Assembly: GCA_000002445.1 (NCBI GenBank)
Contig: CM000207.1
Coordinates: forward strand, 1,120,001-1,184,000
Length of the DNA stretch: 64,000 nt
Reading direction: 5' to 3'
Source: Trypanosoma brucei
Lineage: Eukaryota
The translations under genes and the position numbers were made by a program. The notes beneath the pieces are model-generated. The model was not told the origin of the DNA. It saw only the letters and a program-made list of their open reading frames with translations, and ran no database searches. Positions 20,130-64,000 of this stretch are shown here, piece after piece (position 1 is the stretch's first letter; each line of letters starts with the position of its first letter).

Positions 20130-20296
20130 TATTTATCTAAAAACGAAACAAGTTTACTTGAGGCAATTTAATACAGTATATCTCATTAGAAACTAACACG
20201 CACATGAACACACATATGCATACATACACACCATTTTAAATGCAACAAAGACGCAAAAAAAACATAACATAACATATTTGGTAATGTAATATTAAA

Positions 20297-35084: not shown

Positions 35085-35344
35085 CGTTTTCTTCCAGGGA
35101 TGGAGCTACAAAAATTATACGAAACACTACTAAGAAACAAAAAAAATGGTCAATACGTATAATATGATGTATGGTAAGCTATTAATATAAATTCAAAGTT
35201 AGAGTGAATACACACAAACTTAAATACCATAAGCCATTCCAATTACGTCCCCCGCCGAAAAGGCGCTATAAACGCCACAAGGGTCCCTTCCATTGCTTCC
35301 AATACCTTTTCACCATATTTTTGTGATATCGTATAGCAACATTA

Positions 35345-42050: not shown

Positions 42051-42218
42051 TATTTATCTAAAAACGAAACAAGTTTACTTGAGGCAATTTAATACAGTAT
42101 ATCTCATTAGAAACTAACACGCACATGAACACACATATGCATACATACACACCATTTTAAATGCAACAAAGACGCAAAAAAAAACATAACATAACATATT
42201 TGGTAATGTAATATTAAA

Positions 42219-43637: not shown

Positions 43638-46600
43638 TGTGGCTGTTTTTTTTACTTTTATCAGTTAAACAAATTGGAGAAAAACCTCATCATCGCAGTC
43701 ATTATTGCTATTGGTAGACGCACTCAACAGACGTATACAATGAAAAATATTGAAATTAATAAGTGCCTGGCTCAAACCAACTACAACAGGACCCAACAAA
43801 GAGTAAATCACATTCCAAAACACATTTACATGAGTTCCCTCTCGTCATGCTGGATATCAACATAAAGTTCCTTTACAACTGTTTTGTTTCTCCAATATCT
43901 TCCTCCACCAAATTAACCTCCACTACCTTAACTACCATTCTGGCTTGTCCCAATTTTCTAACTGAGTTGCGCTTCTATTTTCTGTATTTCCTCGTTAGTG
44001 ACTTATCCACTACCCTAATGTGTACCTGCACTTTCATACTATTTTTTTTTCACATCCTGTACCAACTCCTTTAAACTCTGCTTCTGAGTCCCATTTAGCA
44101 TATCCCGCTCTTTTCATAAGCACATTGACAATACTCTTCGTTACTCTTTTTGTGAGCATGTGCAGCTTCCCGTCCTCCATTTTCTTAGACGACACATTGT
44201 TTAATATAAAAGTTGTATCTTAAAAATACCATCAGTGGACACTTATTATTGAAGCCCTTGTTATACGGTGACGTTACGGGATATAATGTCAGTCACCAAC
44301 ACAAAAAAAACGGCTCCAGAATAACAAGAGACCCTCTTTGTCACCACCCTCGTTAGAATTATTTACCACAATCAAAGATGTCACCATTCTTATAGATACG
44401 CTGGTGACAAAAAAGGAGGTCACATACGTAACCATTTATCCTCTCAGTGAACTCTCATCACCTTTACTCCACACAAGTTCGTTACATTAGCAAAAAACAA
44501 ACGGCAAAAACGCTACTTGGGTTAGCTCAAAATCAAACACTCCATCCTTACAGCAAATACAGAGAGCATTCACACACTCCATTCCCCCACAAAATACAGA
44601 TGGTGGAGACAGCCACAGTTATCACAACTCACAATTAAGATAACTCAAGCAAAGACACTCCAACGAAATAGAAGACCAATAACACGAAACATGTGAGCAC
44701 GGACATACAACGTCTTGCATGTATTTTATTATGGAGTAGGGGGAACGTATCCGAAAGTATTTGCTACACAGTAAAATTACTACTATTAGCCACGGCGCTA
44801 TCGAGATGTGTCGAGCAGTACCGAAGCACAGTTGCCATAGATTTCGTTGAAAAGTAGGTAGAAAAGAGGTAATGTTGGATAACGTGGCAACAAGCACGGA
44901 AGATGGATGGCCAGTAGTAGAGGCAAACATGATAACTCTACCTTACTGGAACCGTTACTCTAAATGTGACAGAACACAGTGCCGTCATTTGCAACACTTA
45001 TCACCGCACATATTTTCCTCCTTACTCGACACATCGGCTTTCAGTCAAGCACAAATAGGGGAGATTATTGCTATGATTCCCATTACTAACGGTGTGGGTT
45101 TTCTTGCCGTGAGTAGTGAGTAGCACACGTCCATTGCAGAATTCTAAACCCTCAATTGATTTAACCGGTCACTTATGGGATGCGATTTGGCGTGCAGTTT
45201 ATTGGTAATTCTCAGAGATGCACTGCCTTTGGTCGTGAGTCTACGATAACAATTTACTGCAAACGTTTGTACCACCTTATCAAACGTAGTCAACTGCACA
45301 TCCTCTACCATTTCGCTCCCGTTTTACTTAATTGGTATTCTTGTTACAATGCTGGATCCTTGACATTACCTGTTTCTTTTGCTGTTATCATTTAGGAAGG
45401 TTGAGACCCGTCATGTCCCTTTTGTGAATCCCATCCGTGACCAAATCAATTACAAACGGAGTGCCATGAATGCTTCTCGCTGTGTCCCCACTGTTGTGAC
45501 AATAACACTTGTAATGCATGTCAGTCTAACAGCGTTTTATAACCTTTGAGCAGATTTCAATGGGCCCAATATAGACCACAAGGTGGGTAGCTATTGCATT
45601 GGCGTCTTCGTTCCGTCAACCCTATTTCCTGACTCAACAAGTCTCGCCCAATTGAGTGCCACCGCACCAAAGCAACTGCATACTGTTCATTAGGTAGATC
45701 ATTCCGCAAAGTTATTTCGGTCACCTCGCCACGCAGACTAGCCAGCCCCAGAGGGTTTGTTGTTTTTACCTTCTGCTGAGGAGGTTGAAAATCACGTTCT
45801 CGTACGCCCTTTTCCCCCGCTGCCTGCTCATGCATTCGAATTATTCAAATGGTGCGCTCAGACATTCTCTCTGGTCCTACTCAACTAGTATCAGAAGTGT
45901 CGGTTAAGATTTGTGAGTGAGAGTTCTGAGCAGCTTCTTTCCAGGATACTGCTTGTCTACAGTCGCTACAACTTTTGGTTGCTTTCAGGCTTAAACACTA
46001 CTTCCTTTGTTTCCACCACTGTGCAAATGCAAACGCATTCTTGTTTCCCCCTTCCCTGTTCCACAGTATCCGGCGCGCTCCTAAGAATTGAATTGCCTGT
46101 ATCCCATGGTTACGGCACTTCCTTGGGTCGTACAATTGGTCCAGACAGTCTCTGCTAGTCTTGTTGCAGGTTTCTACCTCGGAAGAGTACGGTCTAACAC
46201 TCTGCTTGATTGGGCACCTCACTTTCGCCAGAAACTACAGTTACTGGCATAACCAATTAGCTTCAAGTAATACGCTTATATTGGTATTCACGAGATTTAT
46301 TACGCGTAAGTTGAAGTACTCATTAACAAGCGATAAGTAGAGTAAAGTTATAATCTTAAAGTCCAGTAGTGTCAAAAAAAGATAGTATATCCGCGGCCAG
46401 GTTAATCTTGCCAGTACACGTAGAATTATGCAAATAATAAAGTAATCAACCAAAAGAAAAAGTGCTAGCAATGTATTTTTCAGCGTCTTCTCGTTAAAAT
46501 TTTATTATTTCTGCGCTTAAGTTTGCGAGTTTCAATACAGTTTGCAGCAATTGTGCTACTATCTTAGTCAAATGGGTTTTGCAATCAACGCTTACAAAAA

Positions 46601-47378: not shown

Positions 47379-48164
47379 TTAAAGGCACACAAGGCTCAGT
47401 GCTGTGGAGAGTATCACTACATGCATTTTGTGTGCAGTGCTCTTCCTCACCTGTGTATTGTTTTCTTTTGACTCCTGCTCATTCATATTGCTTGTTGCCA
47501 GTTCCTCTGTATTTTCTTGCTCAGCCCCCAACACCGCCCTCCGTGCCGGCGGCTGCGCCACGCTCCCGTTATCAGGACCTGTTAATTCCTTTCGAGAAAT
47601 TGCATTTCCTTCGTTTACACGTTTTCTGCTATGTGCTTCCATGCTTTGTTGTCCCCCCACGGTGTCAACTTCCTGTTCGTGAACCGTTTTATCGACATGC
47701 TGTTCGACAGAGTCAGGTGGTGACGGTGCAGCTCCACCAGAAATTGGGGATCTTGAAAGGGGTTTTAGTACCTGACCTTCGCTCCTGCTGCCGACCGCAG
47801 CATCATTTGGTTGCACGGTCACTGTGGGAGATACTTCTTGAGAGCCAGGAGCCCGTTGACTAGTTCTCTCTGCGGCTGAACCCGACACGGCACTCTCCCC
47901 CATTTCTTGCCGCTGGGGATCAACGCTCGTCTTGCCAGGTGCAGGTGTGCCACGAGGTGACGAAACTGAAGCTGCTGGCGGGCTCACACCGCTAGGGTGG
48001 GTTGCGCCTGTATTCCAAGTCCGGCACTGCAGTTCTCCACCGAATGGGGCCCAGTAGTCGTCGCACCGAGGACCAACGGCTGAAACCTCCACCGAAACTT
48101 CCGATTCAACCAATAGCGCGACCAATATTAGCATCACAAATAGGACTGTTGTAAGCCTGAACAT
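47379..48164 (-). CDS. Small Ser/Thr/Pro-rich secreted or membrane-anchored protein (about 261 aa from MFRLTTVLF...), paralogue of 34308..35084
   Basis: The internal ATG at 48164 gives the signal peptide MFRLTTVLFVMLILVALLVESEVS, aligned with the partner's MFMFIQTLFLTLILLALLIKSEAS. The listed ORF extends to 48245, probably spuriously. Conserved Cys motif. C-terminal HKMHVVILSTALSLVCL. Confidence 0.55.
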   Translation of the reverse strand: MFRLTTVLFVMLILVALLVESEVSVEVSAVGPRCDDYWAPFGGELQCRTWNTGATHPSGVSPPAASVSSPRGTPAPGKTSVDPQRQEMGESAVSGSAAERTSQRAPGSQEVSPTVTVQPNDAAVGSRSEGQVLKPLSRSPISGGAAPSPPDSVEQHVDKTVHEQEVDTVGGQQSMEAHSRKRVNEGNAISRKELTGPDNGSVAQPPARRAVLGAEQENTEELATSNMNEQESKENNTQVRKSTAHKMHVVILSTALSLVCL

Positions 48165-48421
48165 TATTTTCTTGCAAGATTTCGCGAAACAAATTATGCA
48201 AAACACTATTAGAAAAAACGCGGCCAACACATGTGGGTACAACACATAAAAAAATTATAATCATATTTGGATTTCGAGCGAACACACACAAACCAAAACA
48301 CTACATTTCATTCCGGTTATCCTATGCCGTTAAAAAGACAATCAAACTCTGCATGTGCCTCATCCACCTTCTTCAGGACATGCCCGCATCATTTCCGTGA
48401 GGCATTACCTAAGCGCATTAA

Positions 48422-50748
48422 TGCATTCAAGCCTTTCCCCTACCCGTGGTTCTTATGATCACCCCTCAGACACCTCACATAATTCCTCATTTTCCATATT
48501 CTGATGGTCAGGGCAACAATAAACAAAATTAGTTCAGATAATATATCTTTTGACAACTTCACCCTCCCACCAACCAAATGAAAAAACATACATATATTTC
48601 TTTTAGTAATTTTTTTTGATACTTGATCTGACGTTATTGGTCCTTTTGTTAGCACTTCCATTATTATCTGTAGGCGGTTCCCCGCTTCTACAACACGTTT
48701 TGACATTACTGTAGTTTCGATAGTTTGCTATATATATAGCTATCATTTTGCTTTCCTTATCCAAACGCTCATATCATGTTTCCAAAATTAGGTCTCGCCC
48801 ATTCGGTCTCATACTTCAATTGACTCAAGTATAATCGTAATAATGTTCAGGGTTTGTGTGCACGTAGCGCGGTTCGTTTGGCATCTTTGCTTTTCCGGAT
48901 TTCACAGCAACAACTTCAAAGCCTCTATTTATTTCAACTTGAAATGGTCACGAATTTTATTCACTATTTATTTTCGTTTCTCTTCCCTTTGCTTTTCCTG
49001 TCCTCAACTTTCATTGCTCTCCATAGGTGCGAGTGGTTCATTTCCATAGCATCGAAGTTATCCACCTCAGTTAAATTCTAAAGTAGAAAAACACATTGCC
49101 TCTCCGTTCCTTCCATCTCGTTTTCTGGTCTTATGCGCTAGCGTTTTTTTTATTTTCTTCATTGACGTTGAAAATTAAAAATATATGTATTAATGATGGA
49201 ATGGCTTATAAAGCAACAAAAATAAGAATATCCATGGAGACCGCGAATTTATTTCGGCGAAACTCCTTTGTTCTTCTGGTGGTCTTGTCGTAGTTCCAGT
49301 GGTTTCTGTAGCTGTGGCGCTTGTAGTTGTTTGTGTATTTGTATTTCCATTTTTTTGTGGTTCGCCTGATCCCTTGGTTGGTGAGTTTTCCCTTGGGCTT
49401 CGCTTCGTCCGTGTATTTGTGTTAGTGTCTGTCTCTGTGCTTGTGGTTGTAGTAGCCGCTGTGTCGGCGTCTGTGATTGCATTTTTGCTCATTTCTTCGA
49501 CCCTCTCCACCAGGTCCTCGAGCTCACTGAGCCATTTGATGCCACTTGTACTGTCTTGATTGGGTCTCTTCGGATACATCACACAAATGCCATTGGTTTG
49601 TGTTTCCTGTCCATCGCAGACATTTGGCTCGCTAACTTCGTTCCCTCCGTAGGTGTAGTACCTGCGCCCACTTGAGCCTTTGCGTTTTTTTATGCCCGTC
49701 TCGAGGCGTTTTCTCTTATCTTGAAACTCAGTCCTCGTTGGTGGAACACCAATACGTCCACTTTCGCACTTATTTTGTAGTTCGCTCCATGTATTTTTGT
49801 GGTTGCTTGAGCTTCTCCATGTTTGAGAAATATATCGTTCCTTGTTTCCAGTGTAACAGAGGTCTCCGGGTGGTGACGTTCCGTCTCTTCCTTCGCACAA
49901 ACAAATAAGATCTTTTACAAGTGCCTCTCCTGCTAAGGAAACTCGTCCACCACTGTCCTGTCCGCAGTCCATTTCTCTGTATCGTTTCCATCCGATTTCA
50001 TTCACATTTTCAGCATTTGCCCCAAACAATATATCATTAACCTTTTTCTGTAGAGAAGCCACATTTACTGCCGACTTTCCTTTCAACTGTAGTGACGAGT
50101 TTATTCGTTGTGTTAAACTAACAAATCCACATAACGTTTTGAACTCCTCTTCATTAACGATGGTTCCTCCTGCAGTAGTTGCAAGAGCCAAAGACACACC
50201 CACAATTAATCCCAGTGACTCCTTCCACATTTTCATTAACATTCCTTCAATTACCTTCCTTAAAGGAGAACACAAACAACGAAAAAAAACCATATGCCTC
50301 CATCTTCATTCCCAAATAAATCGTACACGTAACCCAATCAATAACACTTTTACCTGGAAAACCTCCTTTTATTTTCGGTGCACTGAATTGAATTGAAGGG
50401 AACTGCATCTCTTGCGGAGCATGTGTCCCGTTTCCTTTTTTAAGCATCATAAAGGATGGGAGATACGCAATTAACACGTTAATGCACATACACCAAACAT
50501 AATCCTCTTTCCATTACCTCTGCTAATACCCTTCAAGCAAAGGCAAGAAAAAACTTGCTATTCTAACACAATAATTAACTATATCTGTCTTGATAGCACC
50601 TTACACGTGAATACTAGAAGCTGAATAATCATGCATTATTATCCTCACTCTCCGGAGAGCAGTAAAAAGGGCCATCAAAAGAACTCAAAGGTAGAAACCC
50701 GAATAGTCAAGCGTTAGAATTTTCGATTCCTCCTCAAAAGTTGTGCTA
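48422..50748. repeat. Segmental duplication module B, copy 2
   Basis: See copy 1 at 35345-37676. Confidence 0.9.
49190..50293 (-). CDS. VSG-like surface glycoprotein with Thr-rich stalk (paralogue of 36114..37217, 1 aa difference)
   Basis: Identical ORF apart from R versus S (NQDSTRGIKW / NQDSTSGIKW). Confidence 0.7.
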   Translation of the reverse strand: MVFFRCLCSPLRKVIEGMLMKMWKESLGLIVGVSLALATTAGGTIVNEEEFKTLCGFVSLTQRINSSLQLKGKSAVNVASLQKKVNDILFGANAENVNEIGWKRYREMDCGQDSGGRVSLAGEALVKDLICLCEGRDGTSPPGDLCYTGNKERYISQTWRSSSNHKNTWSELQNKCESGRIGVPPTRTEFQDKRKRLETGIKKRKGSSGRRYYTYGGNEVSEPNVCDGQETQTNGICVMYPKRPNQDSTSGIKWLSELEDLVERVEEMSKNAITDADTAATTTTSTETDTNTNTRTKRSPRENSPTKGSGEPQKNGNTNTQTTTSATATETTGTTTRPPEEQRSFAEINSRSPWIFLFLLLYKPFHH

Positions 50749-50749
50749 A

Positions 50750-53150
50750 CAGTATTTGGGTTTGAAATGTTCATATCGTAGCCTTTAGGATGCGGCCCAT
50801 ACCGCGGTGGTTACAACATTCAAAAGTCCTGCGAGACTTAACGAGTTGGCACAAAAAAAGTCAACCGAACCATACGCATCGCCACTGGAAGCGGAGGCAA
50901 TAGGCGGAGCGTACACGCAGCTCAAAAAGCATGAAATTTCTTAACCTCATATGGTCGTCGCGGACGTTTCTCGTGCTAACAGCACAGAGCACTCCAGGGA
51001 AACCAGAGGCCACAAGACACGTTTGCAGTATATAATCAAAGCGATAATAGCAAACGTGCTTGGGCACTCAGATCTTGCTAAGGCATACACAGGACACTTA
51101 CTGGTACTCCGTACCGAGCGGCAACCACCAAAGCGCGCCGAAAACGTCTCACCAGAAACAGGAAGCCCGGAATACGTAGAGTAACAATAACATCAACAAG
51201 CACTTCAATACCGCCTAGCCAATTAAAGTTTCATCAAAGTATTTGGCGAATACGGAATAATAGCGGCCAACGCCCATATTATATCGTGCATCACACATGG
51301 GTAGTTTATATCAGAGCACTGCCCAGGATGGAATAGGCCTTTCAACAGTAATTTCCATACCCACCAAAACCAGAATTTGAGCCACCGTCCCGGAGGGTTA
51401 GTGAGGTAGGAGGGTGGTCTAACGTTGGGCAACCGCGCGATACACCATTATTGGATCTCATTCGACCCGCCGTCACGCATACCGCATGACACAACGCACA
51501 CGACGAGGGTGGGATGGACGTAAGTGAAGAGGATAGCTGAAAAATATGGGTCTTATTCCAAAAAACGAAGTTCACCATGAGCTGGAGATGGGAAGCAAGA
51601 GAGAGGCTACCGCGTGTATGGTAAGCTCAATCCGCCGTAGCGAGTGAATGAATCAACGTACGGAGAAGCGGACCCATTGGAACCAGGTACGCACCCTTTT
51701 AGCTGAAGAAATCCAACACTACCAGTTTCCCGCTTTGGATACCAACACCAAATTTAACGAGCCCAAGAGATTGCGTCTCTCATAATTACGCGAGAGCTTA
51801 CAACAAACCCTTCCTTCAGAGTCACCGCCGACGAATTAGCAGCACTACGCACCTTCAACGGAATCGAATTCCGCATGACGAGATATAACCCCATGGTGGG
51901 TATTGAGCTGATTCTGATGGCGCTTAGAAGCGGCTTCCAAAAACACCTGCAACGTGTGAAAGAGAAAAGAAGGACGCTTCCACCATTGCCTATCTGCAGC
52001 TGATGCATCCCATTCTCAGATTTGGGTTGCCTCTGATCTTCTCAAAAATCACGACCATGGGAGCTGCCGCAACTTTATCATCGAAGGCTGGTCGAATTGC
52101 TTTGAATTCGCAACGATCCTATTGGTGCGGGCAGCAACAGGAAGAAGGGTCAATTTAAGAAATTTGGAGAGTCCCTAATACCTTTCGATAAAACTAAGGC
52201 AAACATAAGTGCCTACATACGCTAGTTCACGGTACGACCATGAACAAGAGGAACATCTCGGCAAAGGAATCGCCGAGTGGGGCCGATACAAATTAAATAC
52301 ATGAGACAATTCCGCAAACGCCGAAGGCAACGATCACGAGCGCCGAGATGCCAAAACTTGAATCTTACGCGAGGTCGCAGCAGAACGGTCTTTCCTCAAA
52401 GGGGAGGAAGCGACAGCACCAATAGAGCGGCACTCGCGTGTCTAAATAATGAGGGCCCAGCGCCAGCCAAGTGGTCGCTTAAGAAATATCCTGCTCATTG
52501 TACCAAGTGTGGAAAAGAGGCACGAATTTTGCTAGTCGTTGGTGTGATAAAATGGACCGGGAGTTCTTGTCGCCTCTCGAGTGCGTACAAAAAAAAAAAA
52601 ATTGCCCACCGAAACGGAGTCGTGGACATAATGAAATCCGAAATGTTGTCGGAAAGGGGGCCGTAAGGCATTGATATTCCGAGAAATCAACACAGTCGGC
52701 GGATCCATCAACTTCGTTTAGCCCACTTTTGATAAAGTTCAGCAATGGAACCAATAAAACGATTGGGAAACTGTCCAAAGCGCCAACATCATAAATGCAG
52801 ATGGTAGCCAACAGGAGTGTTTTTCTACCACTATGCGATGACACCCTTCTTTGCGCGTTGCAGAAATAAATGGGAAGCCGGTGTGTCGATTGCGTTGAGG
52901 AATCGTCGACGGCTTTCCGAAGTTTATATCCATCTCGCCACTGAGGAGTTGAGGGATCCGTTGGAAGCCGGTTCGAAGTTATTTTGTTGCGGTTCAACGA
53001 TGACGCGGAGCTCAGCGACGTTGGGAGATTTAAAAAAAAAAAACGTGCGCCCACCATTTCCACATTGCTGCAGTCTTCTTATTCTCCTATTATATTTGTT
53101 ACAGCTACATTTACCAGCGCAATGAAGTAATACTTTTTGATATTATCGCC
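50750..53150. other. Complex, GC-normal, apparently non-coding block; candidate degenerate retroelement (ingi/RIME/DIRE-like) or other unannotated element
   Basis: There is no convincing ORF. Only 129-aa and 194-aa ORFs without motifs are present. Its composition differs sharply from the AT-rich low-complexity DNA that begins at 53.2 kb. Internal A-runs occur at 52585-52600 and 53030-53043. There is no similarity to the VSG modules. The family cannot be assigned by eye. Confidence 0.2.
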
Positions 53151-53199
53151 CCCGACACTTCAGTAAACACAAACAAATAATCACCAAAACATCAACTCC

Positions 53200-53784
53200 C
53201 CAAACTTCTCTTTTTTTTTTTGGCCAACACCGCATAATAGCGGTCAGGGAATCATGTCGAACTCTTCGGAATATCCAACGTTGCAACATCACGGCAAACA
53301 CTTCCGCACACAACAGCTCCGCCGTAACTGTCAGCCCGCCCGTGTGCATTTGACTCCTTTCATGCAAGGCGATATATGGAAGTAACGTTGTGTTCCCGCC
53401 ACCAGGAGTTTTTTTTTCTTCTTTTTCTCATATAAAAAATAAAAATCTGGTCTTAACTCCTTCCGCAGGTTACTTCACCTCACTGTGTTCATTGGATTTT
53501 ATTTTATCTTATTTATTTTTTTTGCCTTTACCTTTTCCCATGTCCACATTCCCACTTTACCGCCAGATGAGACAACATTAGCTTCATTTAACCTCCGCAT
53601 GATTAACAAATAACACACACACACACAAAAAAAAAAAGAAAAGATAACCCGATAAAACCGATGTCGTACACCAATAATTTAATAAATGCAAAGAGGAATT
53701 TAAAGTAAACTGGGACAAATCGCCATCAGATTATTGCATTATTTCCCACCTTCCAACTCGAACCCGCTGTTCTGAACTAAGTTT

Positions 53785-53816
<32 letters not shown>

Positions 53817-56800
53817 TCGCAATGAATGATTTGTAAAAACGCACCATTTCTATAAATTGAGCCCCTTCCCGTACGTGTTTTTCTCCTTTTTTTTTGCAAA
53901 ATATTTACCATCATTAAAAAGGAGATGAGAACAGTACAAAATAGAAAGTTTTTTTAAAAAAAATGAGCATAAACGAACATAATTCCCACTTAAATTATTA
54001 TACATAATTCCACCCCTTTCCCTAAAATGGAATGATTAATATTTATATTTACCTCCGCTTCGTGTATAAATTAAGAACTTATTTCAATTATTTTTTTTTT
54101 CAGCGGCATTTTTTTTTTTTTAGTTACCGAATAAAACATGCGCTTCGTGACACGTTGTTTTGTTACCTTCATTCAACTTATTAGTGATTTTCGAGATGTC
54201 CTTTATTTATTTCTGCCATATAATTTGAAGGTTTCTTTACAAAATTAAATATACACATGCAAATCACAATTCCACTGATAAGACAACAGTTGTAATGTAA
54301 AATTAATGACTCCTAATGATGCCCCCTTTTCTTTTCTTTTTTTTTCCAAATACATATTTTAATAAATAAATTAATTAATTTACTTATTTATATGTTTTAC
54401 ATACGCATATGTATTCATATTCATTTGTGGCTTGTCATAAAAAACCCGCTCCTCTCTTCTAATAAACTATATAAAATATAAAATTAACTTGACTTAAATA
54501 AACTTAATCTAAACTATTCCTTGACTCATCACACATCTCATTACCCTTTTTTAAAAAAAAATATAAATAAATAAATAAATATATATATATTGATTCCTGT
54601 GTGCGTGTGTGTGTGTGCGTGTGTAATGGAAAAAAAATTAAATAAGAAAAGAAACGAAAAGGAAAAAGGAAAAAAAGGGAAAAGGAAAATTGATTTAAAA
54701 TACCGAATGAAATAATAGCAATAATAATAATAATAATAATTTTTTTAAAAAAAAGGTGATCAGTTGGGGGTGAAGGGACAGTTACAAAAAAATACTAAAA
54801 AAAAACATTTTTTTATATGAAATTATAATGACACCCTCCCATAAGTTTTCCTTATTCTTTTTTTTCCCCCCCTTTTATGCGCTCACACGATAATACACAA
54901 CGTAACGTCAGTACTTAAATGTTGGCATCCGTTTGAAAGCACAAAATAAGAGGTTTAAAAGAAAATTATTATTTTTTTTTTTTAAAAAAAGAAAAGAATG
55001 AAAAAATAATTAAAAAAATAATAAAAGGAAAGGAAAGTAGGGAAGGAAAAAAAAAAAGAAGAAAGGGATGGAAAGATGGGTGTTGAAGTGACGCTAAAGA
55101 AAAGAAAAGAAAAGAAAATAAATAAATAAATAATAGAAATAACTGAAAGAAAAAAAAAGTGGATGCGTGAGAGAGAGTGCGCGTGCGTGTGTACGTTGGG
55201 TTCCTCACGACTAAAATTAGGAGAAGGGAAACAAATAAATAAATAAATATAAATGTTTCGTTCATATTTAAATTTACCATGTTCGTTACGCCTTCCTATT
55301 TCAGTTCATTTATCTATTCATTCATTTCTTTATATATTTTCATTTACAATAATAATAATAATAAATGAATGTTTTTTTTTATTTTATTTTATTATCTTTA
55401 TTTTTATTATTTTCTGTTTTGTCACGTTCTTTTATTTTTTTTCTTTCTTTCTTTCCTTCTTTCCTTTTTGTTTTTGTTTTGTTAAACAAAAATTTAACAC
55501 TCCTGCACCGTTCCTTCATTCCGATTCCGTCCCGTTCACACACTTTTTCCGTTTACTTTTTGATATTATTTTTTCTTATTATTTTTTTTTGTAATTTATT
55601 TTCCTCATTTATCCAACGGGATCATTTCCCGCCCCTTTCGTTTCATTTTTAGCATTAAAAAAAAAAAAATAAAAATACAAAAAAAAAAATAAATCGAACC
55701 GAAGAGATGAGGCAACAAAATCACAAAAAGAACAAACAAACAAACAAACAAAAAGGCAAGGAAATAAAAATAAAAGTAAGGAAGACAAGAGGGATGATTA
55801 TTATTTAAATAAAATAATTTTTTTCATTAAAAAAAAAAAGGTATTGTTCCACACAGCTTTTGGAAAGTTTTTACGCGGAAATAATACGTAAAAACGTGGA
55901 AACACGAAAAAAAAAACAAGAAAAATAACATAACATAAAATAATATATAAAATAATAAATCAGTGCACAGGCTTACGTCATGCAACTGAAGAAAGAGAAA
56001 CAAAGAGGAAAACATAAATAAACAAAAAAATATTACATTTTTAATGTTTGAAAAAAAAAATGTAAATGTAAATGTAAAATTAACAGATTTGCCGCACTTC
56101 GTGATGTTTACACACATAAATAAAAGCGGATGGGACGGATTGTGCATATGTTGGATCACCACGTGTGTTACGTTGAAGTTAGTTCATTAATTAAAATTAT
56201 TAATCATTTAAAAGGAGAAAGAGAATTAATTTTTTTAAAATAAAAATAAATAAAAATAAATAAAAATAAAATAAAATAAACAAAACAAACAAACAAACAG
56301 GAGGGATTGTACCGTTACTTGTTGATAACCATAGTAACAATAATATTAATAATAATATTAATAATTGTTTAACCATAGTTACTAATAATTGTTAATAAAA
56401 GCAGGGCTGGCGGTAACGAGTAAATGAATGAATGGAGATTGCAAAAAATTTGAGAGGTGCGCACATTTGTGGGCGCGGGGGGGAGGGGGGGGGGAAAAAA
56501 ATAAATAAAAATACGTCCACACGAGTACACGCAAGTGACTTTTTCTCTTTCCCTCTTTTGTTTTTTTTATTTATTATTCATTCTTTGTCTTCTTCCCCCA
56601 CTCTCTCTATCTCTCTCTCTCTCTGCACACACACACACACAAAAAAAAAAAGAAACAAAAACGTAAAGAAAAAAACAAAAAGTGACCCGTCCCCTCATCG
56701 TTAATTTTACTCCACCGTTTTCTTCCTTCCGCTCCTCAAATACTCGCGTTACACCGATTAAATTTTTTTTTCCTACCCTTTTTCTTTTTTAAAAAAAAAA

Positions 56801-57050
56801 ACTCTCTTCCAGTTTCTTTCTCCTTCTTTCATTCTTTCTTCTTGTCGTTTCCCTTTGTTAGCCGCTACCCTATACAACTTCTTAATCCGTCTTCCTTTTT
56901 TTCTATTTTTTCTTTTTAAAAAAAAAAAATAAGAAAAACCTTTTAACCAATTCAATAAACGTTTTGCTCTCATTTATTTTTTATTTTATGCCTTTTTTTT
57001 TCTTTTTCATTCATTCATTCATTCTTTCATTTATTCATTTATTACCTCCT
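53200..57050. repeat. Extremely AT-rich low-complexity / microsatellite-rich region
   Basis: Long A and T homopolymers. (ATA)n at 53786-53816. (AAAT)n and (ATAA)n runs. (CAAA)n at 55731-55750. (AAATAA)n at 56235-56275. (TC)n / (CA)n at 56598-56640. Strand-asymmetric blocks: T-rich top strand at 55.25-55.65 kb and A-rich top strand at 55.65-56.5 kb. Confidence 0.9.
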
Positions 57051-57061
57051 CTTAGGGACAG

Positions 57062-58450
57062 TTATGATTCTGGAAGAGCCGTCATAACCGCCAAAGCCAA
57101 CATGGAGCCGGCAAAGAGGCCGAGTAAAAGGGCCAAATTCCCACAAATGGCGGCAAGGGAGCGTTGACCCGCAGTTGTTAAAGAGCCGGTACGTGGCGCA
57201 TAAATCATAGACATACCACCAAAATAACCATTTGTGAGACCCCAAAGAAGACAAAGAATATAAGGGAGTGCGGAACCGGGAATGATGCCGCGCACGCACA
57301 ACACAAGCAGTGGAATGATCAACAAACGAGCGAACGTTCCGATAAGGACCACGATGGGCGATGGGCGCAGCTGCTTGAACTGAAGTACGAGGCGGGAGAG
57401 AAAGTCACCGAAGTTAAACATAGCGGCGGTGAGAGTTATGTACCATCCATCTTTCACTTCAACGGCGAAAAATACACCGGGGAAGACGAGGAGGGTAGCA
57501 AAAAATACGAAGAAACACGAGACCAACATGGGCCAAATGCGCTTCACCACAAACCACAAATTAGCATCGAGCATTTGTTGTGCGTTGGTGGTGCCATCAA
57601 CCTGATCGGTATCCTTCATCTTGTCCGGATCTTCGCTGACGTTCAGGACATTCATCTTGGAAGTTGACTTCTCCACCCGTTCGCCCTCCTCTCCGGCATT
57701 AGCTTCTTGGTCTGTAATGGTCTCTTGAACAGGTTCGTTACTTTCCACTGCGCTCTCTTTCGCTGCAGCATGCCTAAACTCAGCGGCGTATTTTATCGCA
57801 TAAGGATTCTTCGTTAGCAGAGCCAAAAGAACACAGGCGATCACCTGAATAAATATGACAATACCAAAGTATATCCTCGACTGAGTTAACATGCTCTCGA
57901 AGCTATCATCCATCGAAGCTTTAATAATGATAGACATGAGGGAAGTAATGAGCCCGGAAACACCAAGACCCCACACAATAGCCCCATAAAACCTCGTTGG
58001 AAACGGTCCTACCAGTGCCGCATTACTCGAGTCGCAAAGTGTTTTGGAAACACCACCAACCAAAGCAATAATTATAATAGTTGCTTTGGCGCCTGCTTCA
58101 CTGGTATGGCACACGGTGATAAGTATAAGCGCAATAAGTTCTACAAGAGGAATAGTGAGGCCAAAGATAAGCCGGATCCGGATGGGGATTCGCCTTCCAA
58201 CATTCGTCAGCATAAAAGTTTCCAGAAGCACCTGAGCACTAAACACTGCGGCGTTGTAGTACGTGAGTATGTTGTTCCAGAAATTCTCATTCTCTGTTTG
58301 AGCGTCCGAGCTGCCTTGTGCATACTTGTAGTATTCCGTAAAGAAGGCTGGTATGGAGTAAATGGCATTTGTCACCATCATCACCGACATCCCAAAAAAG
58401 ATGAAGGTGACATAGACGACGAACTCAGAAAACGACTCAAACCCGAGCAT
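57062..58450 (-). CDS. Equilibrative nucleoside transporter (ENT/SLC29) family protein, trypanosome nucleoside/nucleobase transporter (AT/NT-type)
   Basis: 462 aa. ATG verified. About 11 predicted TM helices. The large hydrophilic acidic loop between TM6 and TM7 (ESAVESNEPVQETITDQEANAGEEGERVEK...DPDKMKDTDQVDG) is typical of ENTs. The N-terminus MLGFESFSEFVVYVTFIFFGMSVMMVTNAIYS and motifs such as GAIVWGLGVSGL resemble kinetoplastid NT/AT1 transporters as I remember them. The exact orthologue cannot be assigned without a search. Confidence 0.85.
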   Translation of the reverse strand: MLGFESFSEFVVYVTFIFFGMSVMMVTNAIYSIPAFFTEYYKYAQGSSDAQTENENFWNNILTYYNAAVFSAQVLLETFMLTNVGRRIPIRIRLIFGLTIPLVELIALILITVCHTSEAGAKATIIIIALVGGVSKTLCDSSNAALVGPFPTRFYGAIVWGLGVSGLITSLMSIIIKASMDDSFESMLTQSRIYFGIVIFIQVIACVLLALLTKNPYAIKYAAEFRHAAAKESAVESNEPVQETITDQEANAGEEGERVEKSTSKMNVLNVSEDPDKMKDTDQVDGTTNAQQMLDANLWFVVKRIWPMLVSCFFVFFATLLVFPGVFFAVEVKDGWYITLTAAMFNFGDFLSRLVLQFKQLRPSPIVVLIGTFARLLIIPLLVLCVRGIIPGSALPYILCLLWGLTNGYFGGMSMIYAPRTGSLTTAGQRSLAAICGNLALLLGLFAGSMLALAVMTALPES

Positions 58451-58695
58451 GATTCTTGCTTAAATGACTCAGCTAGATGGTGAAGCGCACCCCTACAAAT
58501 AGCATAAGACAACATAAACATAAAAGCAAAACAAATAATTAAAAAAAAAAGTGGAAACATAACAACGTCAATAGGCAACAAGAGTGTGAGATTAGTACAA
58601 TATCCATTATGCACATGATTCCGTAAGGAAATGATATGACAAGCAAAACACACCAAAAACTCAAGCACACACAAACACACAGGCAGACACATGCA

Positions 58696-59299: not shown

Positions 59300-60814
59300 C
59301 TACTTGGCACGTAGGTGCTGTTCAATCCACTCCAATTGCTCATCATCCAAACTATCCGCGTACGCACTGCTGCTCATTTCCCATGAACCATCATCATTAT
59401 CATAAGCAAAATGACCGTGATCTGCGCTGTATTCGCTTTGAGACGCCAACACGGAGGAGAATTCATCTCCTTGTGCATCTATATTGAGAGAGGATGAAGA
59501 TGGCATGCGGTGACGTAGCAGGCGACGCGTTGCTACGGAGGGACCATTCACATCCCAATAACCCCCTGCGCAGTGGAAAAGTTCAACATTACTTGCACCT
59601 GCGTTGGATGAACCAAAGATACATTCCTGCCATTCCTGTCCAACAGATGCGGCATCTTCCTCTTCTTCACCCATCTGAAGCATATGGAGCATTTTTGCCT
59701 CATCTTGGGCTTCCGCGTCGGTGAATGGAATGCGCAGGTGTCGAATACCATCACCTTCACAACTATCTTCAACCCCTTCGGTTGTGTAGGGAATATCTTC
59801 AACACTGTCATCTTTCCCATCGCCGCATTGAACACACTGCTGGCAGCGTAACGTATCAAAGGTTGGCGACGATGTAACTGGTTTAACTGAAGCAGGGATT
59901 ATAGAACTGGTACTGCCAACTTTCGGCGTATCTGGGGACAAGCAACTCTCAGAGGTGGCAAGAGCCCCACCACCTCTGAATCCTGGTGGATGATACACCA
60001 TTCCACCTCTTAATACAAGTGGAGTGCATGGAAACTCCAGTGAATGCGATTGTGCTCTCACATCCTCAACACTGCATGGGCTAACAATGCTGTCAATATA
60101 CCGCTTTGATCCTTCGCAGGGAAACAAAGGAACACCATGTTCACACGTTGCTTGTGCCAAAGCGGGTGACTGAGGAGCAGTTCGCGAGAGAGGAAGAAAA
60201 GGTGCCGCATGTACGGACAGCCCTTTCCGACTCATTTCTGTTCGTAGAACCTCCCTATCGTCACCACTTCCAGGGCCGCTCGTTACACTTTGCGTTGTGA
60301 TACCGCCATGTAGCCCCGTGGCTTGAAGAATCTGCGTAGGAGATAACAACGTACTAAACGCAGAAGCGCTCAGCGAGGAGGCCGGGGCGGCTTCTTCCGT
60401 TTCCTTCACTTCCTTAGCTGAACTCGAGAGGTCATCTGGCTTGAGTTGCTGAAGTGAGTTGAGTCTCCGTGTGGGCGTGAGTGGAACGTTACTTCTTTCC
60501 TTACTGACAGCAGCGGATTCACAATAAGGTGGGGATGCGAGACACACTGCGGCGGAAGTGTCGCTGGTGCTGATTTCAGTTGATTTACTGATATCCAAAG
60601 GGTTTCCTCGACTTGCACGCGTTGCAGCGCGCTTTTGCGTTGATTTCGGTGCCGAATTCCCTGCACGGCCTTGTTTACCTTTTGAAGCAGCTGCTAATGA
60701 ACGTGACTGCCGGTGTTGGGGACGTCGGGCGGCTGGTCCTGAGCGTGGGTTTGCTTGTGTTTGAACCTTTGTTTGGCAATAAGGCGTCTTGTGTGTGGTT
60801 GTCGGTTGGTTCAT
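59300..60814 (-). CDS. Hypothetical protein (about 504 aa from the first ATG), Ser/Ala/Thr-rich, predicted largely disordered
   Basis: Long minus-strand ORF. The listed start at 60874 is GTG. The first ATG gives MNQPTTTHK.... GC content is clearly higher than the flanking AT-rich DNA. There are no recognisable catalytic motifs. A few Cys pairs (CQQCVQC, CEGDG). Confidence 0.5.
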   Translation of the reverse strand: MNQPTTTHKTPYCQTKVQTQANPRSGPAARRPQHRQSRSLAAASKGKQGRAGNSAPKSTQKRAATRASRGNPLDISKSTEISTSDTSAAVCLASPPYCESAAVSKERSNVPLTPTRRLNSLQQLKPDDLSSSAKEVKETEEAAPASSLSASAFSTLLSPTQILQATGLHGGITTQSVTSGPGSGDDREVLRTEMSRKGLSVHAAPFLPLSRTAPQSPALAQATCEHGVPLFPCEGSKRYIDSIVSPCSVEDVRAQSHSLEFPCTPLVLRGGMVYHPPGFRGGGALATSESCLSPDTPKVGSTSSIIPASVKPVTSSPTFDTLRCQQCVQCGDGKDDSVEDIPYTTEGVEDSCEGDGIRHLRIPFTDAEAQDEAKMLHMLQMGEEEEDAASVGQEWQECIFGSSNAGASNVELFHCAGGYWDVNGPSVATRRLLRHRMPSSSSLNIDAQGDEFSSVLASQSEYSADHGHFAYDNDDGSWEMSSSAYADSLDDEQLEWIEQHLRAK

Positions 60815-60899
60815 TTTTTCAGTGGCGAAATAATACAATGATGATTCCGTGAAATCTATTTCTCTCCCACACACGCTAACTTTTGTCCGTCTTTTTTTT

Positions 60900-61548
60900 T
60901 TCTTTTTACCTTTTGTCCAACGCCCAAAGCGCCTTTGGATTCTTCACTGCAACACCTCCCCCAATAGGGAAATGTGCGGATATATATATATGAGTGTGGT
61001 AAAAGTGATCGGATGGGTCCTTTTTTTCCTTTTTTTTTTGTGAAGAAACGAGGTCAACAATATTCAAATTCCTTTTATTTCTTCTTCTTTTCTCCTCCCC
61101 TCCCCTTCCAGCTTCCTTCAGATGAATGGTTAAAAAGAAGAGGACTGCCTGTTGTTTCAGTTTTTCCTTCACTTCACTTCACTTCACCAGGTGAACACCG
61201 TCTTTTGGGTGCCTTTTTTTTTCCCTTCTTTTTGTTGTTGTTCGTGTTTGTGATGTTGGCTGTTTGCCGCCGCAACGGCTTGCGCTAAACCGTGGCTTTA
61301 CTAATAAAGAAATTATGGAAAAGTGAAGACGATGGTATCAGCACGGAAAATATATATTTAAAAATAAATAAATATAAATATATATATATATATCAACTCA
61401 GACAATAGAAGGGAGAGGCACACACACAGAGAAAGAGAGAGAAAAAAAAAAGAAAAAAGAAAAAAAGAAAAAATAAAAAGAAGGAGGGGAAAAATACGAA
61501 GCAAAATTAAGAAGATGCAATGGTGACGCTTGTATGCGTTGTCACTGG

Positions 61549-61580
<32 letters not shown>

Positions 61581-63780
61581 TAAACTGTTGTGGTAATAAT
61601 AGCAGTGTATCAGGGCAAAGTAATTCATTTTTCTTTCTTTTTTTTTTAATTATTATTATATATTATTATTTCTCTCCCTAAAAGGGAAAAATAATAATAA
61701 TAATAAAAAGAGAAAATGTTCAAATTTCTTTGCTTAGAAACGCGATTCAACAGACGATGGCGCACGAGAACATGCACATCGGCACAAACACAAATATAGC
61801 GCACAAGAGCCACGACAAAAAAGAAAAAAAACGGACAACGAAAGACAACAGCCAAAAAAGTAAAAAAAAAAAAGATAGCGACCGAGATCACTAAATTATG
61901 TGCACTCCGGCTTTCAACGTGACCACTGCAGCTGACGTCGCTAAGTGCTGTAAAAAAAAAAAAAGCGGGTTGGCGATTACTGATGCAAATGAAAACCCCC
62001 CCTTTAAAAAAAAAAAAACAAAATAAACACGCAAAAACCGTCATCATTACTAAATCCATCATCACCACCAATCTTCTAACGTCGAAAAATAAAATAAAAT
62101 AGAAAAGAGATATCTATCCATCATATGATTCTTCTCGACAACGTTTTTCATTCATTCATTCTTTCTTTTCCTTTTCTTTTCCTTTTCTTCTCTCCCTCCC
62201 ATCACCCATCTTTATTTATTTTATTTTATTTTATTTCTTGTTTCATTTCTTTCTTTCATTCTCCACGTACCTATTGAAGGTACAGCATGTAATGGTGTTT
62301 TTTTTTTTTTAAATAAAGCAACAAAAATAAACGTCCACAGATTTCTTTCTTTTTTTTTTTTTGACTGAGTGGTGCCGTAACGGTGTGTTTCACTTTTATA
62401 TATTTTTATTCCTTCGAATTTTTATTGTAATTACAAGTTGCAACCAACTGAGACGCACCTCCCACAAATTCATCACGGGTAACGTCATTCCTTTTATATA
62501 TATAAATATATAAATCCTTCTCATTCAAAGCCATGCAAAACAACAACAACAACACAACAAAAAACAAAGAAAAATTGTTGTAACAATAATAATAATAATA
62601 ACAATAATAATAAAAATGGTAAACCAAAAATATTGAACCCGTAGAAGAAAAGCAAATAAAAAAAACACACACACAAACACATATGGAGACACACGCAAAG
62701 CAAAAGCAGATATGACAATAACACAACAACAAAATGTCGTGTGCTTTTCGTGTTAAATAAAATTCATGGCATGCAACAGTCCTCACGGAACAAAAGAAAA
62801 AAAAGAACAAAAAAGAAAAGAAAAGAAACACCGGTAAAATAATATCAAACCAAAAATAAAAAATTAATGGCAACATTTTCAGTCGCTGGTTTTGTCGTCT
62901 TTTATTTTATTTTATTTTCCTTTTCTCTTTTATTTTCCTTCTGTTCATTGTGTTTCTCTTTTTTGTTTCTTTTTTTTTTTTTTACCTTCAGGCCTTCTGT
63001 ATATATATAAATATCCTTCGTGAATCCTTCAGGGTGTCTCCATTATTTATTTTCCCCATTTGTTTCTTTGTTAGATGGTGTGAAGGACGTTAGGGACGTA
63101 ATAAAAATCATAAATTCTAAAAAAAGAAAATTGAAAATTCACAACACTTGCGTAGCGAATACTCTTGTCTTCGTTATCCCACAACAATAACAAAAAAAAC
63201 GATCAATAAATAAATAAGCAAAACAAATCTTCATCTTCCTCTCGTGCACTTACGCGATTGACCCTTGAAGAAAACAAGAAAGAAACCGAAAAAAAAAAAC
63301 AAACTAGCCATATGATTCTTCATGGATACCCTTCATATACATATACATGTAAATACATACATTCCTTTTCCTTTTTTCCCCCCACCCCACCTCTTTTTCC
63401 CCTTCTCTCACTGTTGTGAGCTTTTATTATTATTACTATTATTATTATTATTACTGTTATTATTATTTTCCTTCATCGGCTTTACACAATCAAAAACTTA
63501 TAATCGACTTCAAGGCCTTTTTAAATTCCCCATCATCACTTGTTGCATTGTACTTTTAATCGTATCTTCCATCTCTACAACTCTGCTTGTATCCGAACGT
63601 TTGTATACATCTCTCCCTCTATATATTTATTTATTTATTTGGATTGTGATTAAAATAAAGACAAGGTAAAAAAGGCGAAAAAAAAACAACAACAACAAAA
63701 AAAAAACAAAAAAGAGAAACATTCCTCCCTCCCACCCACCCACTCACTCACTCACCACGTCATTGATATGACATTTTGTT
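60900..63780. repeat. AT-rich low-complexity intergenic region with multiple microsatellites
   Basis: (CAA)10 at 61551-61582. (GA)/(A)-rich block at 61430-61490. (ATT)/(AAT) runs. (TATTAT)n at 63425-63465. Poly-A/T tracts throughout. Confidence 0.9.
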
Positions 63781-63791
63781 TTTGTTTTTGT

Positions 63792-64000
63792 TTACAACGA
63801 CTCCCGAAGCTCTGCAACAATCGCTTTCGCCTCCTCATCGGAAGGACTTTCCTTAAGGGCGGCTTCTGCCACTTCTAACGCCTCTTGCATTTTTCCGCCA
63901 TCCGCAAGTATGGCAGCTTTTGCTTTCAAAAGTGTTGCAACGGTCCGACCCCCGACATTACCGGCCGCATCCGCCTCCTCCGGTGGTGGGTTGCAAATAA
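63792..64000 (-). CDS. 3' end of a minus-strand gene that continues beyond the window; the C-terminal 69 aa are visible; hypothetical (helical, Ala/Glu/Leu-rich, TPR-like feel)
   Basis: Reverse-complement frame is open from the window edge to TAA (plus-strand tta at 63792-63794): ...ADAAGNVGGRTVATLLKAKAAILADGGKMQEALEVAEAALKESPSDEEAKAIVAELRESL*. There is an abrupt rise in GC relative to the upstream AT-rich DNA. It is not in the ORF track because there is no start codon inside the window. Confidence 0.4.
   Translation of the reverse strand, partial: ICNPPPEEADAAGNVGGRTVATLLKAKAAILADGGKMQEALEVAEAALKESPSDEEAKAIVAELRESL

What the first reader, a model, noticed from the sequence alone, without database searches (positions are those of the whole stretch)
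57062..58450. ENT-family nucleoside transporter gene isolated in AT-rich low-complexity DNA, downstream of a VSG array; candidate drug-transporter-type locus
A 462-aa equilibrative nucleoside transporter sits alone between about 4 kb and about 3 kb of extreme low-complexity AT-rich sequence. It is about 7 kb from a VSG-like gene array. In African trypanosomes, ENT paralogues of exactly this size, such as the P2/AT1-type aminopurine transporter of about 463 aa, mediate uptake of melaminophenyl arsenicals and diamidines. From memory, at least one sits near VSG-related genes. Loss or mutation of such a gene is a classical resistance mechanism. The repetitive flanks could promote deletion or recombination of the gene.
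Basis: partly seen in the sequence, partly recalled or inferred. Interest (0 to 1): 0.5.

Follow-up and report, generated by a model that had tools for sequence, protein, structure and literature searches.

The report
Known trypanosome nucleoside transporter TbNT10
The gene is TbNT10, an already well-studied purine nucleoside importer of Trypanosoma brucei. It is not the P2/TbAT1 carrier that takes up arsenical and diamidine drugs, and the AT-rich DNA beside it is mostly its own long regulatory 3' untranslated region.

Summary
The 462-aa ORF at 57062-58450 (- strand) is real and is an ENT-family transporter (Pfam PF01733, 112.7 bits). It is 100% identical to the T. brucei TREU927 chromosome 9 protein EAN76770/XP_827100. 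Both published TbNT10 (Tb927.9.7470 = Tb09.160.5480 = AT-B) qPCR primers match inside it exactly. An AG splice acceptor lies exactly 42 nt upstream of the ATG, which is the published 5'UTR length.

It is not P2/TbAT1-type. It is 55-56% identical to TbAT1, against 68% to the chromosome 6 paralogue and to TcoAT1/NT10. It falls in the P1 clade in 186 of 200 bootstraps and next to TbAT1 in none. The TbAT1 locus has different neighbours. Published work shows P1-type adenosine/inosine/guanosine uptake. The null mutant is unchanged in sensitivity to melarsen oxide and pentamidine and 3.6-fold more resistant to tubercidin and cordycepin.

The 4-kb AT-rich flank (GC 29%) is real and largely matches the published ~2.7-kb AU-rich 3'UTR. 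The gene is not isolated: a conserved 504-aa gene lies 849 bp upstream. No long direct repeats flank it. The "VSG array" is a mixed array of one putative VSG with VSG-related, ESAG2, ESAG9 and ESAG11 genes. Verdict: already known, ordinary.

The parts
57062..58450 (-). Coding sequence of TbNT10 (Tb927.9.7470 / Tb09.160.5480 / AT-B), a 462-aa P1-type purine nucleoside transporter of the ENT family
   Evidence: ORF. Pfam PF01733 at 112.7 bits. 100% identical to EAN76770/XP_827100/Q38EK0 of T. brucei TREU927 chromosome 9. Profile hits to PfENT1 and hENT1 structures. Hydropathy shows TM segments on both sides of a hydrophilic loop at about residues 225-300.
57762..57898 (-). 137-bp amplicon defined by the published TbNT10 qPCR primers AE647 and AE648
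   Evidence: Primer sequences from PMC3493610. Each matches the window once with 0 mismatches, in convergent orientation.
58451..58492 (-). 5' untranslated region, 42 nt
   Evidence: The AG at 58494-58493 is followed by exactly 42 nt before the ATG (sequence). The published cDNA-derived 5'UTR is 42 bases (PMC2686105).
58493..58553 (-). Trans-splice acceptor AG (58494-58493) and the upstream polypyrimidine-rich tract
   Evidence: Read directly from the sequence (ctttttttttttaattatttgttttgcttttatgtttatgttgtcttatgctatttgtAG). The role is inferred from the match to the 42-nt 5'UTR.
54360..57061 (-). Approximate 3' untranslated region (~2.7 kb), AU-rich, with 9 UAUUUUUU motifs. The 3' boundary is inferred, not mapped.
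   Evidence: Published: 4.2-kb mRNA, 1.4-kb ORF, ~2.7-kb 3'UTR with AU-rich stretches (PMC2686105). Composition. Motif count 9 against 3.1+-1.7 expected. The mRNA is bound by DRBD3 (PMC2504296) and by RBP10 (PMC5568443).
53058..54359 (-). Rest of the AT-rich intergenic stretch, running to the next annotated ORF
   Evidence: Composition. No ORF of note. Function not determined.
59300..60814 (-). Upstream neighbour: conserved hypothetical protein of 504 aa, same strand, 849 bp from the transporter
   Evidence: Exact match to EAN76771/XP_827101, with orthologues in T. b. gambiense and T. equiperdum. Called as a gene in the T. equiperdum locus. No Pfam domain.
52479..53057 (-). Downstream neighbour: a 192-aa ORF annotated 'hypothetical protein, unlikely'
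   Evidence: Exact match to EAN76767. Called in T. equiperdum. Doubtful as a real gene.

Best explanation
The ORF is TbNT10 (Tb927.9.7470, formerly Tb09.160.5480, also called AT-B) on chromosome 9 of Trypanosoma brucei TREU927. It is a plasma-membrane ENT-family carrier with P1-type specificity, taking up adenosine, inosine and guanosine with high affinity for purine salvage. It is the main adenosine carrier of procyclic (insect) forms, and its mRNA rises in stumpy bloodstream forms.

It lies inside a long - strand polycistronic unit. Stage-specific expression is therefore set after transcription. The mRNA has a 42-nt 5'UTR and a long AU-rich 3'UTR of about 2.7 kb. That 3'UTR accounts for most of the 4-kb AT-rich flank. 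The mRNA is bound by the regulators DRBD3 (stabilising in procyclic forms) and RBP10 (repressing in bloodstream forms).

Shown here: gene identity, ENT membership, clade, 5'UTR geometry, flank composition, motif density and gene neighbours. Taken from the literature: substrate profile, knockout phenotypes, UTR lengths and protein binding. Inferred: the 3'UTR end at about 54.36 kb, and the idea that the UAUUUUUU copies mediate RBP10 control.
For: - 100% identity over 462 aa to EAN76770/XP_827100/Q38EK0 on the 3,057,547-bp TREU927 contig.
- Ten other ORFs of the window, all that were looked up, match TREU927 chromosome 9 proteins in the run EAN76750-76771 exactly. One of them is named Tb09.160.5440 and lies four accession numbers before the transporter.
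- The published TbNT10 primers match exactly.
- The AG acceptor gives exactly the published 42-nt 5'UTR.
- Identity is 68% to TcoAT1 and 55-56% to TbAT1. These mirror the published values of 67% for TcoAT1 against TbNT10 and 54% for TcoAT1 against TbAT1.
- The P1 clade is recovered in 186/200 bootstraps. Of 48 clade-diagnostic columns, 39 are P1-like, 4 are TbAT1-like and 5 match neither.
- Function comes from PMC2686105, PMC3862423 and PMC9960827.
- Regulation comes from PMC2504296, PMC5568443 and PMC2771046.
- UAUUUUUU occurs at 3.3 per kb in the 3' flank, against 0-0.5 per kb in other intergenic regions of the same unit.
Against: - No published text was found that directly links accession EAN76770 to the gene ID Tb09.160.5480. 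The link rests on the primers, the 5'UTR, the chromosome and the accession order.
- The 3'UTR end is not mapped. The RBP10 paper counts only 1 UA(U)6 motif in its annotated 3'UTR, against 9 in 2.7 kb here, so that annotated UTR was presumably shorter.
- The opposite strand of the same region also carries 6 copies of the motif. Part of the enrichment therefore reflects A and T runs.
- The published negative drug data for arsenicals and pentamidine are from procyclic forms only.
Confidence: 0.97

Rival explanations
1. The gene is a P2/TbAT1-type aminopurine transporter, or a functional equivalent. It would take up melaminophenyl arsenicals and diamidines, and its loss would give drug resistance.
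For: - Same family and nearly the same length as TbAT1 (462 vs 463 aa).
- The TbAT1 substrate-pocket residues F19, D140 and F316 are all present.
- VSG-related genes are nearby.
Against: - 55-56% identity to TbAT1 against 64-68% to the P1 paralogues.
- Never sister to TbAT1 in 200 bootstraps, while TbAT1 groups with the chromosome 3 paralogue and the 482-aa paralogue in 200/200.
- F19, D140 and F316 are conserved in nearly all ENTs examined, so they carry no information.
- The TbAT1 locus neighbours are ribulose-phosphate epimerase, galactokinase and GRESAG4, which is not this context.
- The TbNT10 null mutant is unchanged in sensitivity to melarsen oxide and pentamidine (PMC2686105).
- The orthologue TcoAT1/NT10 does not carry diminazene (PMC3862423).
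Confidence: 0.01
2. The low-complexity AT-rich flanks make the gene a hotspot for deletion or recombination, so that it is frequently lost in the field.
For: - Both sides carry microsatellites such as (TTA)n, (TA)n, (CA)n and A or T runs.
- Indels against T. equiperdum cluster at these sites. One stretch of about 250 vs 356 bp at 56299-56549 does not align.
Against: - The longest sequence shared between the two flanks is about 30 nt of (TTA)n. There are also 60-80-nt low-complexity matches at 77-80% identity. With low-complexity filtering the longest shared match is 20 nt.
- The locus is collinear at 96-99% identity with T. equiperdum OVI.
- The protein is 99.8-100% conserved in T. b. gambiense and T. 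equiperdum.
- A deletion between the two AT-rich blocks would also remove the conserved 504-aa gene.
Confidence: 0.04
3. The AT-rich flanks are something other than UTR or intergenic DNA, for example a degenerate mobile element, a replication or chromatin boundary, or a non-coding RNA locus.
For: At GC 0.294, the 3' flank is well below the other intergenic regions of the window, which range from 0.34 to 0.49. Only about 2.7 of its 4.0 kb is accounted for by the published 3'UTR.
Against: - No Rfam family and no tRNA anywhere in the window.
- No repeat family beyond simple sequence.
- The Northern-based 4.2-kb mRNA accounts for most of the flank.
- Long AU-rich 3'UTRs are ordinary for stage-regulated T. 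brucei mRNAs (established knowledge).
Confidence: 0.03

Closest known systems
TbNT10 / AT-B (Tb927.9.7470, Tb09.160.5480), T. brucei P1-type purine nucleoside transporter
   Same: Identical: 100% protein identity to the TREU927 chromosome 9 product, exact primer matches, the 42-nt 5'UTR, the AU-rich 3' flank, and the chromosome 9 context next to the ESAG9/VR/ESAG2/ESAG11 array.
   Different: Nothing found. This is the gene itself.
TcoAT1 / TcoNT10 (TcIL3000.9.2500), T. congolense
   Same: 68% identical. It is sister to the window protein in 129/200 bootstraps. It is published as the syntenic orthologue: P1-type, with no diminazene uptake (PMC3862423).
   Different: 472 aa against 462 aa, in a different species. 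Synteny was not re-tested here, because no T. congolense contig was retrievable.
TbAT1 / P2 aminopurine transporter (Tb927.5.286b)
   Same: Same ENT family, 463 aa, the same conserved pocket residues F19, D140 and F316, and adenosine as a shared substrate.
   Different: - 55-56% identity and a separate clade, shared with the chromosome 3 and 482-aa paralogues, at 200/200 bootstraps.
- Located at the end of chromosome 5, with different neighbours.
- P2 carries adenine, arsenicals and diamidines, whereas NT10 carries inosine and guanosine and does not affect sensitivity to those drugs (PMC2686105, PMC3862423).
Chromosome 6 paralogue (Tb927.6.220, NT9/AT-D; the name is recalled from memory, not tested) and the NT2-NT7 cluster on chromosome 2
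   Same: 64-68% identity and the same P1 clade, recovered in 186/200 bootstraps. The motifs around D140 and F316 are identical or nearly so.
   Different: Different chromosomes. NT2-NT7 are reported as more highly expressed in bloodstream than in procyclic forms (PMC2771046). NT10 is enriched in stumpy and procyclic forms.

Membership tests
Equilibrative nucleoside transporter (ENT/SLC29) family | Sequence match to the family model above the curated threshold | tested here: met
   Pfam PF01733 at E=3e-32, 112.7 bits against a cut-off of 29.8, covering profile positions 4-305 of 309.
Equilibrative nucleoside transporter (ENT/SLC29) family | Homology to ENTs with solved structures | tested here: met
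   A profile of 23 homologues hits PfENT1 (7wn0, E=3.1e-10) and hENT1 (6ob6, E=9e-7). The single-sequence search found nothing.
Equilibrative nucleoside transporter (ENT/SLC29) family | About 11 transmembrane helices with a large hydrophilic loop between TM6 and TM7 | tested here: inconclusive
   A crude Kyte-Doolittle scan finds 9 clear hydrophobic segments (5 before and 4 after the loop) and a hydrophilic loop at about residues 225-300. Two weaker helices fall below the threshold. No dedicated topology predictor or 3D model was run.
TbNT10 (the specific gene, P1-type) | Sequence identity with the published gene | tested here: met
   100% identical to the TREU927 chromosome 9 protein. The published primers AE647 and AE648 for Tb927.9.7470 match exactly. 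The 42-nt 5'UTR is reproduced.
TbNT10 (the specific gene, P1-type) | Membership of the P1 clade | tested here: met
   The neighbour-joining tree and 186/200 bootstraps group it with the chromosome 2 cluster, the chromosome 6 paralogue and TcoAT1. Of 48 diagnostic columns, 39 are P1-like.
TbNT10 (the specific gene, P1-type) | High-affinity uptake of adenosine, inosine and guanosine, inhibited by inosine | not testable with these tools
   Published only: PMC2686105. Km is 0.41 uM for adenosine and 0.53 uM for inosine, as quoted in PMC9960827.
P2 / TbAT1-type aminopurine and drug transporter | Orthology or closest sequence relationship to TbAT1 | tested here: not met
   55-56% identity. Sister to TbAT1 in 0/200 bootstraps.
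P2 / TbAT1-type aminopurine and drug transporter | Synteny with the TbAT1 locus on chromosome 5 | tested here: not met
   In T. b. gambiense, TbAT1 lies between ribulose-phosphate epimerase/galactokinase and GRESAG4 at a contig end. The window is chromosome 9, between a 504-aa hypothetical gene and the ESAG/VR array.
P2 / TbAT1-type aminopurine and drug transporter | Substrate-pocket residues F19, D140 and F316 | tested here: met
   All three are present (F19, D140, F316). They are equally present in the P1 paralogues and in most other trypanosomatid ENTs examined, so they do not discriminate (residues from PMC4755147).
P2 / TbAT1-type aminopurine and drug transporter | Uptake of adenine, melaminophenyl arsenicals and diamidines, with loss giving resistance | not testable with these tools
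   Published evidence is negative. The NT10 null mutant is unchanged for melarsen oxide and pentamidine (PMC2686105). The orthologue TcoAT1 shows no diminazene uptake (PMC3862423).

The most novel reading that the evidence does not exclude
TbNT10 and the three ESAG9 genes of the adjacent array all appear in a published list of stumpy-upregulated genes. They lie in the last ~45 kb of one - strand transcription unit, which ends at a convergent strand-switch region (~9.4-13.1 kb). The most novel reading not excluded is that position adds to 3'UTR-based control. On this reading, distal-unit chromatin or transcription attenuation would make this a physically linked block of transmission-stage genes. 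No shared complex sequence was found between the NT10 and ESAG9 flanks, so any common control would not act through an obvious common element.
Probability: 0.08. Interest if true: 0.4.

Novelty: already known. Interest (0 to 1): 0.07.

Why it matters
The result matters mainly as a correction. Reading any roughly 460-aa trypanosome ENT as a TbAT1-like drug carrier repeats a mistake documented in the literature. TcoAT1 was taken for the T. congolense diminazene transporter and used as a resistance marker, until it was shown to be the NT10 orthologue with no diminazene uptake (PMC3862423).

For this locus, loss or mutation would not be expected to cause arsenical or diamidine resistance. It could reduce uptake of nucleoside-analogue drug candidates that enter through P1-type carriers (PMC2686105, PMC9960827). 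Nothing new about the biology emerges.

Tried and rejected
- A single-sequence search of the PDB found nothing. A profile was needed.
F19, D140 and F316 are conserved in nearly all ENTs examined. The STIB777R SNP positions lie mostly in variable loops.
- Searches for long direct repeats flanking the gene and BLAST of the 3' flank against the rest of the window gave only microsatellites and low-complexity matches. No sequence is shared with the ESAG9 flanks.
- The paper defining the 34-nt ESAG9 3'UTR element (PMC3672941) is not held, so that element could not be searched for.
- The REG9.1 paper does not mention NT10 or this locus.
- A literature search for the accessions Q38EK0, XP_827100 and EAN76770 found nothing.
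- Rfam and tRNA scans of the whole window were empty.
- ORFs in the higher-GC stretch at 50.3-53.1 kb look like noise.
- No T. congolense contig was available, so synteny could not be re-tested directly.

Full report
**Observation.**
- It matches the Pfam Nucleoside_tran model at 112.7 bits against a cut-off of 29.8, over almost the whole profile.
- A profile built from 23 homologues reaches the solved ENT structures PfENT1 (7wn0, E=3e-10) and hENT1 (6ob6, E=9e-7).
- A simple hydropathy scan shows blocks of hydrophobic segments on either side of a hydrophilic loop at about residues 225-300.
- The flank at 53058-57061 is 4.0 kb with GC 0.294. It is the most AT-rich and most compressible intergenic stretch of the window.

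The description of the other side is wrong.
- Only 849 bp (GC 0.376) separate the transporter from a 504-aa gene at 59300-60814 on the same strand. That gene is annotated as a conserved hypothetical protein in T. brucei, T. b. gambiense and T. equiperdum.
- The second AT-rich block (60815-64000, GC 0.341) lies beyond that gene.
- So the gene is not isolated.

**Where the window comes from.** Ten other ORFs of the window were looked up by exact sequence, and all ten are annotated proteins of T. brucei brucei TREU927 on a 3,057,547-bp contig. Their accession numbers fall in one consecutive run, EAN76750 to EAN76771.
- The transporter is EAN76770/XP_827100/Q38EK0.
- The VSG-related gene at 49190-50293 is EAN76766, named Tb09.160.5440 by NCBI. 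It lies four accession numbers before the transporter. This fits Tb09.160.5480 for the transporter, by inference from the numbering.

**Identity of the gene.** The literature names Tb09.160.5480 = Tb927.9.7470 as TbNT10, also called AT-B (PMC2686105; PMC3862423; PMC8648117). Three sequence-level checks tie the window ORF to that gene.
1. The published TbNT10 qPCR primers AE647 and AE648 (PMC3493610) each match the window once, without mismatch. They lie in convergent orientation inside the ORF, at 57875-57898 (-) and 57762-57784 (+).
2. The published 5'UTR is 42 bases. In the window, an AG preceded by a pyrimidine-rich tract sits at 58494-58493, leaving exactly 42 nt before the ATG.
3. The window protein is 68% identical to the T. 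congolense protein TcoAT1 and 55-56% identical to TbAT1. The published values are 67% for TcoAT1 against TbNT10 and 54% for TcoAT1 against TbAT1.

**P1 or P2.**
- A neighbour-joining tree places the window protein with the chromosome 2 cluster, the chromosome 6 paralogue and TcoAT1. TbAT1 groups with the chromosome 3 paralogue and a 482-aa paralogue.
- In 200 bootstraps the P1 grouping is recovered 186 times, the TbAT1 grouping 200 times, and a window-TbAT1 pairing never.
- Of 48 columns that are fixed and different between the other P1 paralogues and TbAT1, the window protein has the P1 state in 39, the TbAT1 state in 4 and neither in 5.
F19, D140 and F316 are the modelled substrate contacts of TbAT1 (PMC4755147). 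All three are present, but they are conserved in nearly all trypanosomatid ENTs examined.
- The TbAT1 locus, read in T. b. gambiense, lies at a contig end between ribulose-phosphate epimerase/galactokinase and a GRESAG4 adenylate cyclase. This is unlike the context here.

**What it does (literature).**
- Its mRNA is low in slender forms and higher in stumpy forms. In strain AnTat 1.1 it is highest in procyclic forms.
- A GFP fusion localises to the cell surface.
- The null mutant completes the life cycle. It loses most adenosine uptake in procyclic forms and is 3.6-fold more resistant to tubercidin and cordycepin. It is unchanged in sensitivity to melarsen oxide and pentamidine (PMC2686105).
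- The T. congolense orthologue was once mistaken for a TbAT1 equivalent. It carries adenosine and inosine but not diminazene (PMC3862423).
- P1-type carriers are of interest as entry routes for modified tubercidins (PMC9960827).
- So the locus is a drug-uptake gene only in that narrower sense.

**What the AT-rich flank is.**
- The TbNT10 mRNA is 4.2 kb with a 1.4-kb ORF. Its 3'UTR is estimated at about 2.7 kb and contains AU-rich stretches that caused internal priming. That places the poly(A) site near 54.36 kb by inference, and it accounts for about two thirds of the 4-kb flank.
- The mRNA is bound and stabilised by DRBD3 in procyclic forms (PMC2504296).
- It is also listed among RBP10 targets. 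It rises 1.9-fold after RBP10 RNAi, and its procyclic/bloodstream polysomal ratio is 12 (PMC5568443).
- The RBP10 motif UAUUUUUU occurs 9 times in the first 2.7 kb after the stop codon. A first-order Markov expectation is 3.1+-1.7, and 0.65% of simulations reach 9. Other intergenic regions of the same unit have 0-0.5 copies per kb.
- Two cautions apply. The opposite strand of the same region has 6 copies, so part of the excess reflects A and T runs. The RBP10 paper counts only one motif in its annotated 3'UTR, so that UTR was presumably shorter.

**Deletion hypothesis.**
- No long direct repeats flank the gene. The two sides share about 30 nt of (TTA)n and low-complexity matches of 60-80 nt at 77-80% identity. 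With low-complexity filtering the longest shared match is 20 nt.
- The locus is collinear with T. equiperdum OVI at 96-99% identity, with indels at microsatellites. One stretch of about 250 vs 356 bp at 56299-56549 does not align.
- The protein is 99.8-100% conserved in T. b. gambiense and T. equiperdum.
- Nothing points to an unstable gene, although population data were not available.

**The array.**
- The genes at 13-50 kb are all on the - strand, so the transporter is transcribed before them.
- They are one putative VSG (13103-14566), VSG-related genes, two ESAG11, two ESAG2 and three ESAG9-type genes.
- There are two segmental duplications.
- The unit ends at a convergent strand switch at about 9.4-13.1 kb.
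- ESAG9 genes with chromosome 9 IDs from this neighbourhood, and Tb09.160.5480 itself, appear together in a published table of stumpy-upregulated genes (PMC2771046). I did not pursue this coincidence beyond showing that their flanks share no complex sequence.

**Verdict.** This is a known, well-characterised gene in an ordinary trypanosome gene context. The ENT call was right and the P2/TbAT1-type drug-transporter reading is not supported. Novelty: already known. Interest: low.

Noticed in passing
window 13103-50293 (- strand): The so-called VSG array is a chromosome-internal mixed array. It holds one putative VSG (13103-14566) and VSG-related genes (36114-37217, 38886-40031, 49190-50293, plus a copy split into two ORFs at 16965-18110). 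It also holds ESAG11 (19014-20129, 40935-42050), ESAG2 (20297-21715, 42219-43637) and ESAG9-type genes (25331-26119, 34308-35084, 47379-48245).
   Followed up: partly
window 15791-24126 vs 37710-46048; 35340-37676 vs 48416-50752: There are two segmental duplications inside the array. One is 8.4 kb at 95.9% identity (offset 21,919 bp). The other is 2.3 kb at 99.5% identity (offset 13,076 bp). One VSG-related copy in the first block is disrupted, while its duplicate at 38886-40031 is intact.
   Followed up: partly
window ~9386-13102: A convergent strand-switch region: + strand genes (RNB-domain exoribonuclease, PhyH dioxygenase and others) end at 9385, and - strand genes begin at 13103. GC skew changes sign here. 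No tRNA or Rfam family was found in it.
   Followed up: partly
window 25331-58450: ESAG9 genes of this chromosome 9 neighbourhood (Tb09.160.5400, Tb09.160.5430, Tb09.v1.0330) and TbNT10 (Tb09.160.5480) all appear in one published table of stumpy-upregulated genes (PMC2771046). Four such genes therefore lie within about 35 kb of one transcription unit. The mapping of those IDs to the three ORFs is inferred from numbering. No complex sequence is shared between their flanks.
   Followed up: partly
window 54563-56931 (- strand): There are nine UAUUUUUU (RBP10-type) motifs within 2.5 kb downstream of the NT10 stop codon. The RBP10 paper lists only one motif in its annotated NT10 3'UTR. This implies disagreement about the length of the 3'UTR.
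   Followed up: partly
window 56299-56549 vs L001 11891-12247: A simple-sequence stretch of the NT10 3' flank, with a C-rich run and nearby GT/GA repeats, differs in length between T. brucei TREU927 (~250 bp) and T. equiperdum OVI (~356 bp) and does not align. It might bear on the strain-specific NT10 expression reported in PMC2686105.
   Followed up: no
window 50294-53057: This stretch has a higher GC content (about 0.47) but no convincing ORF. The only annotated feature is a 192-aa 'hypothetical protein, unlikely' (52479-53057). It may be degenerate gene or element remains.
   Followed up: no
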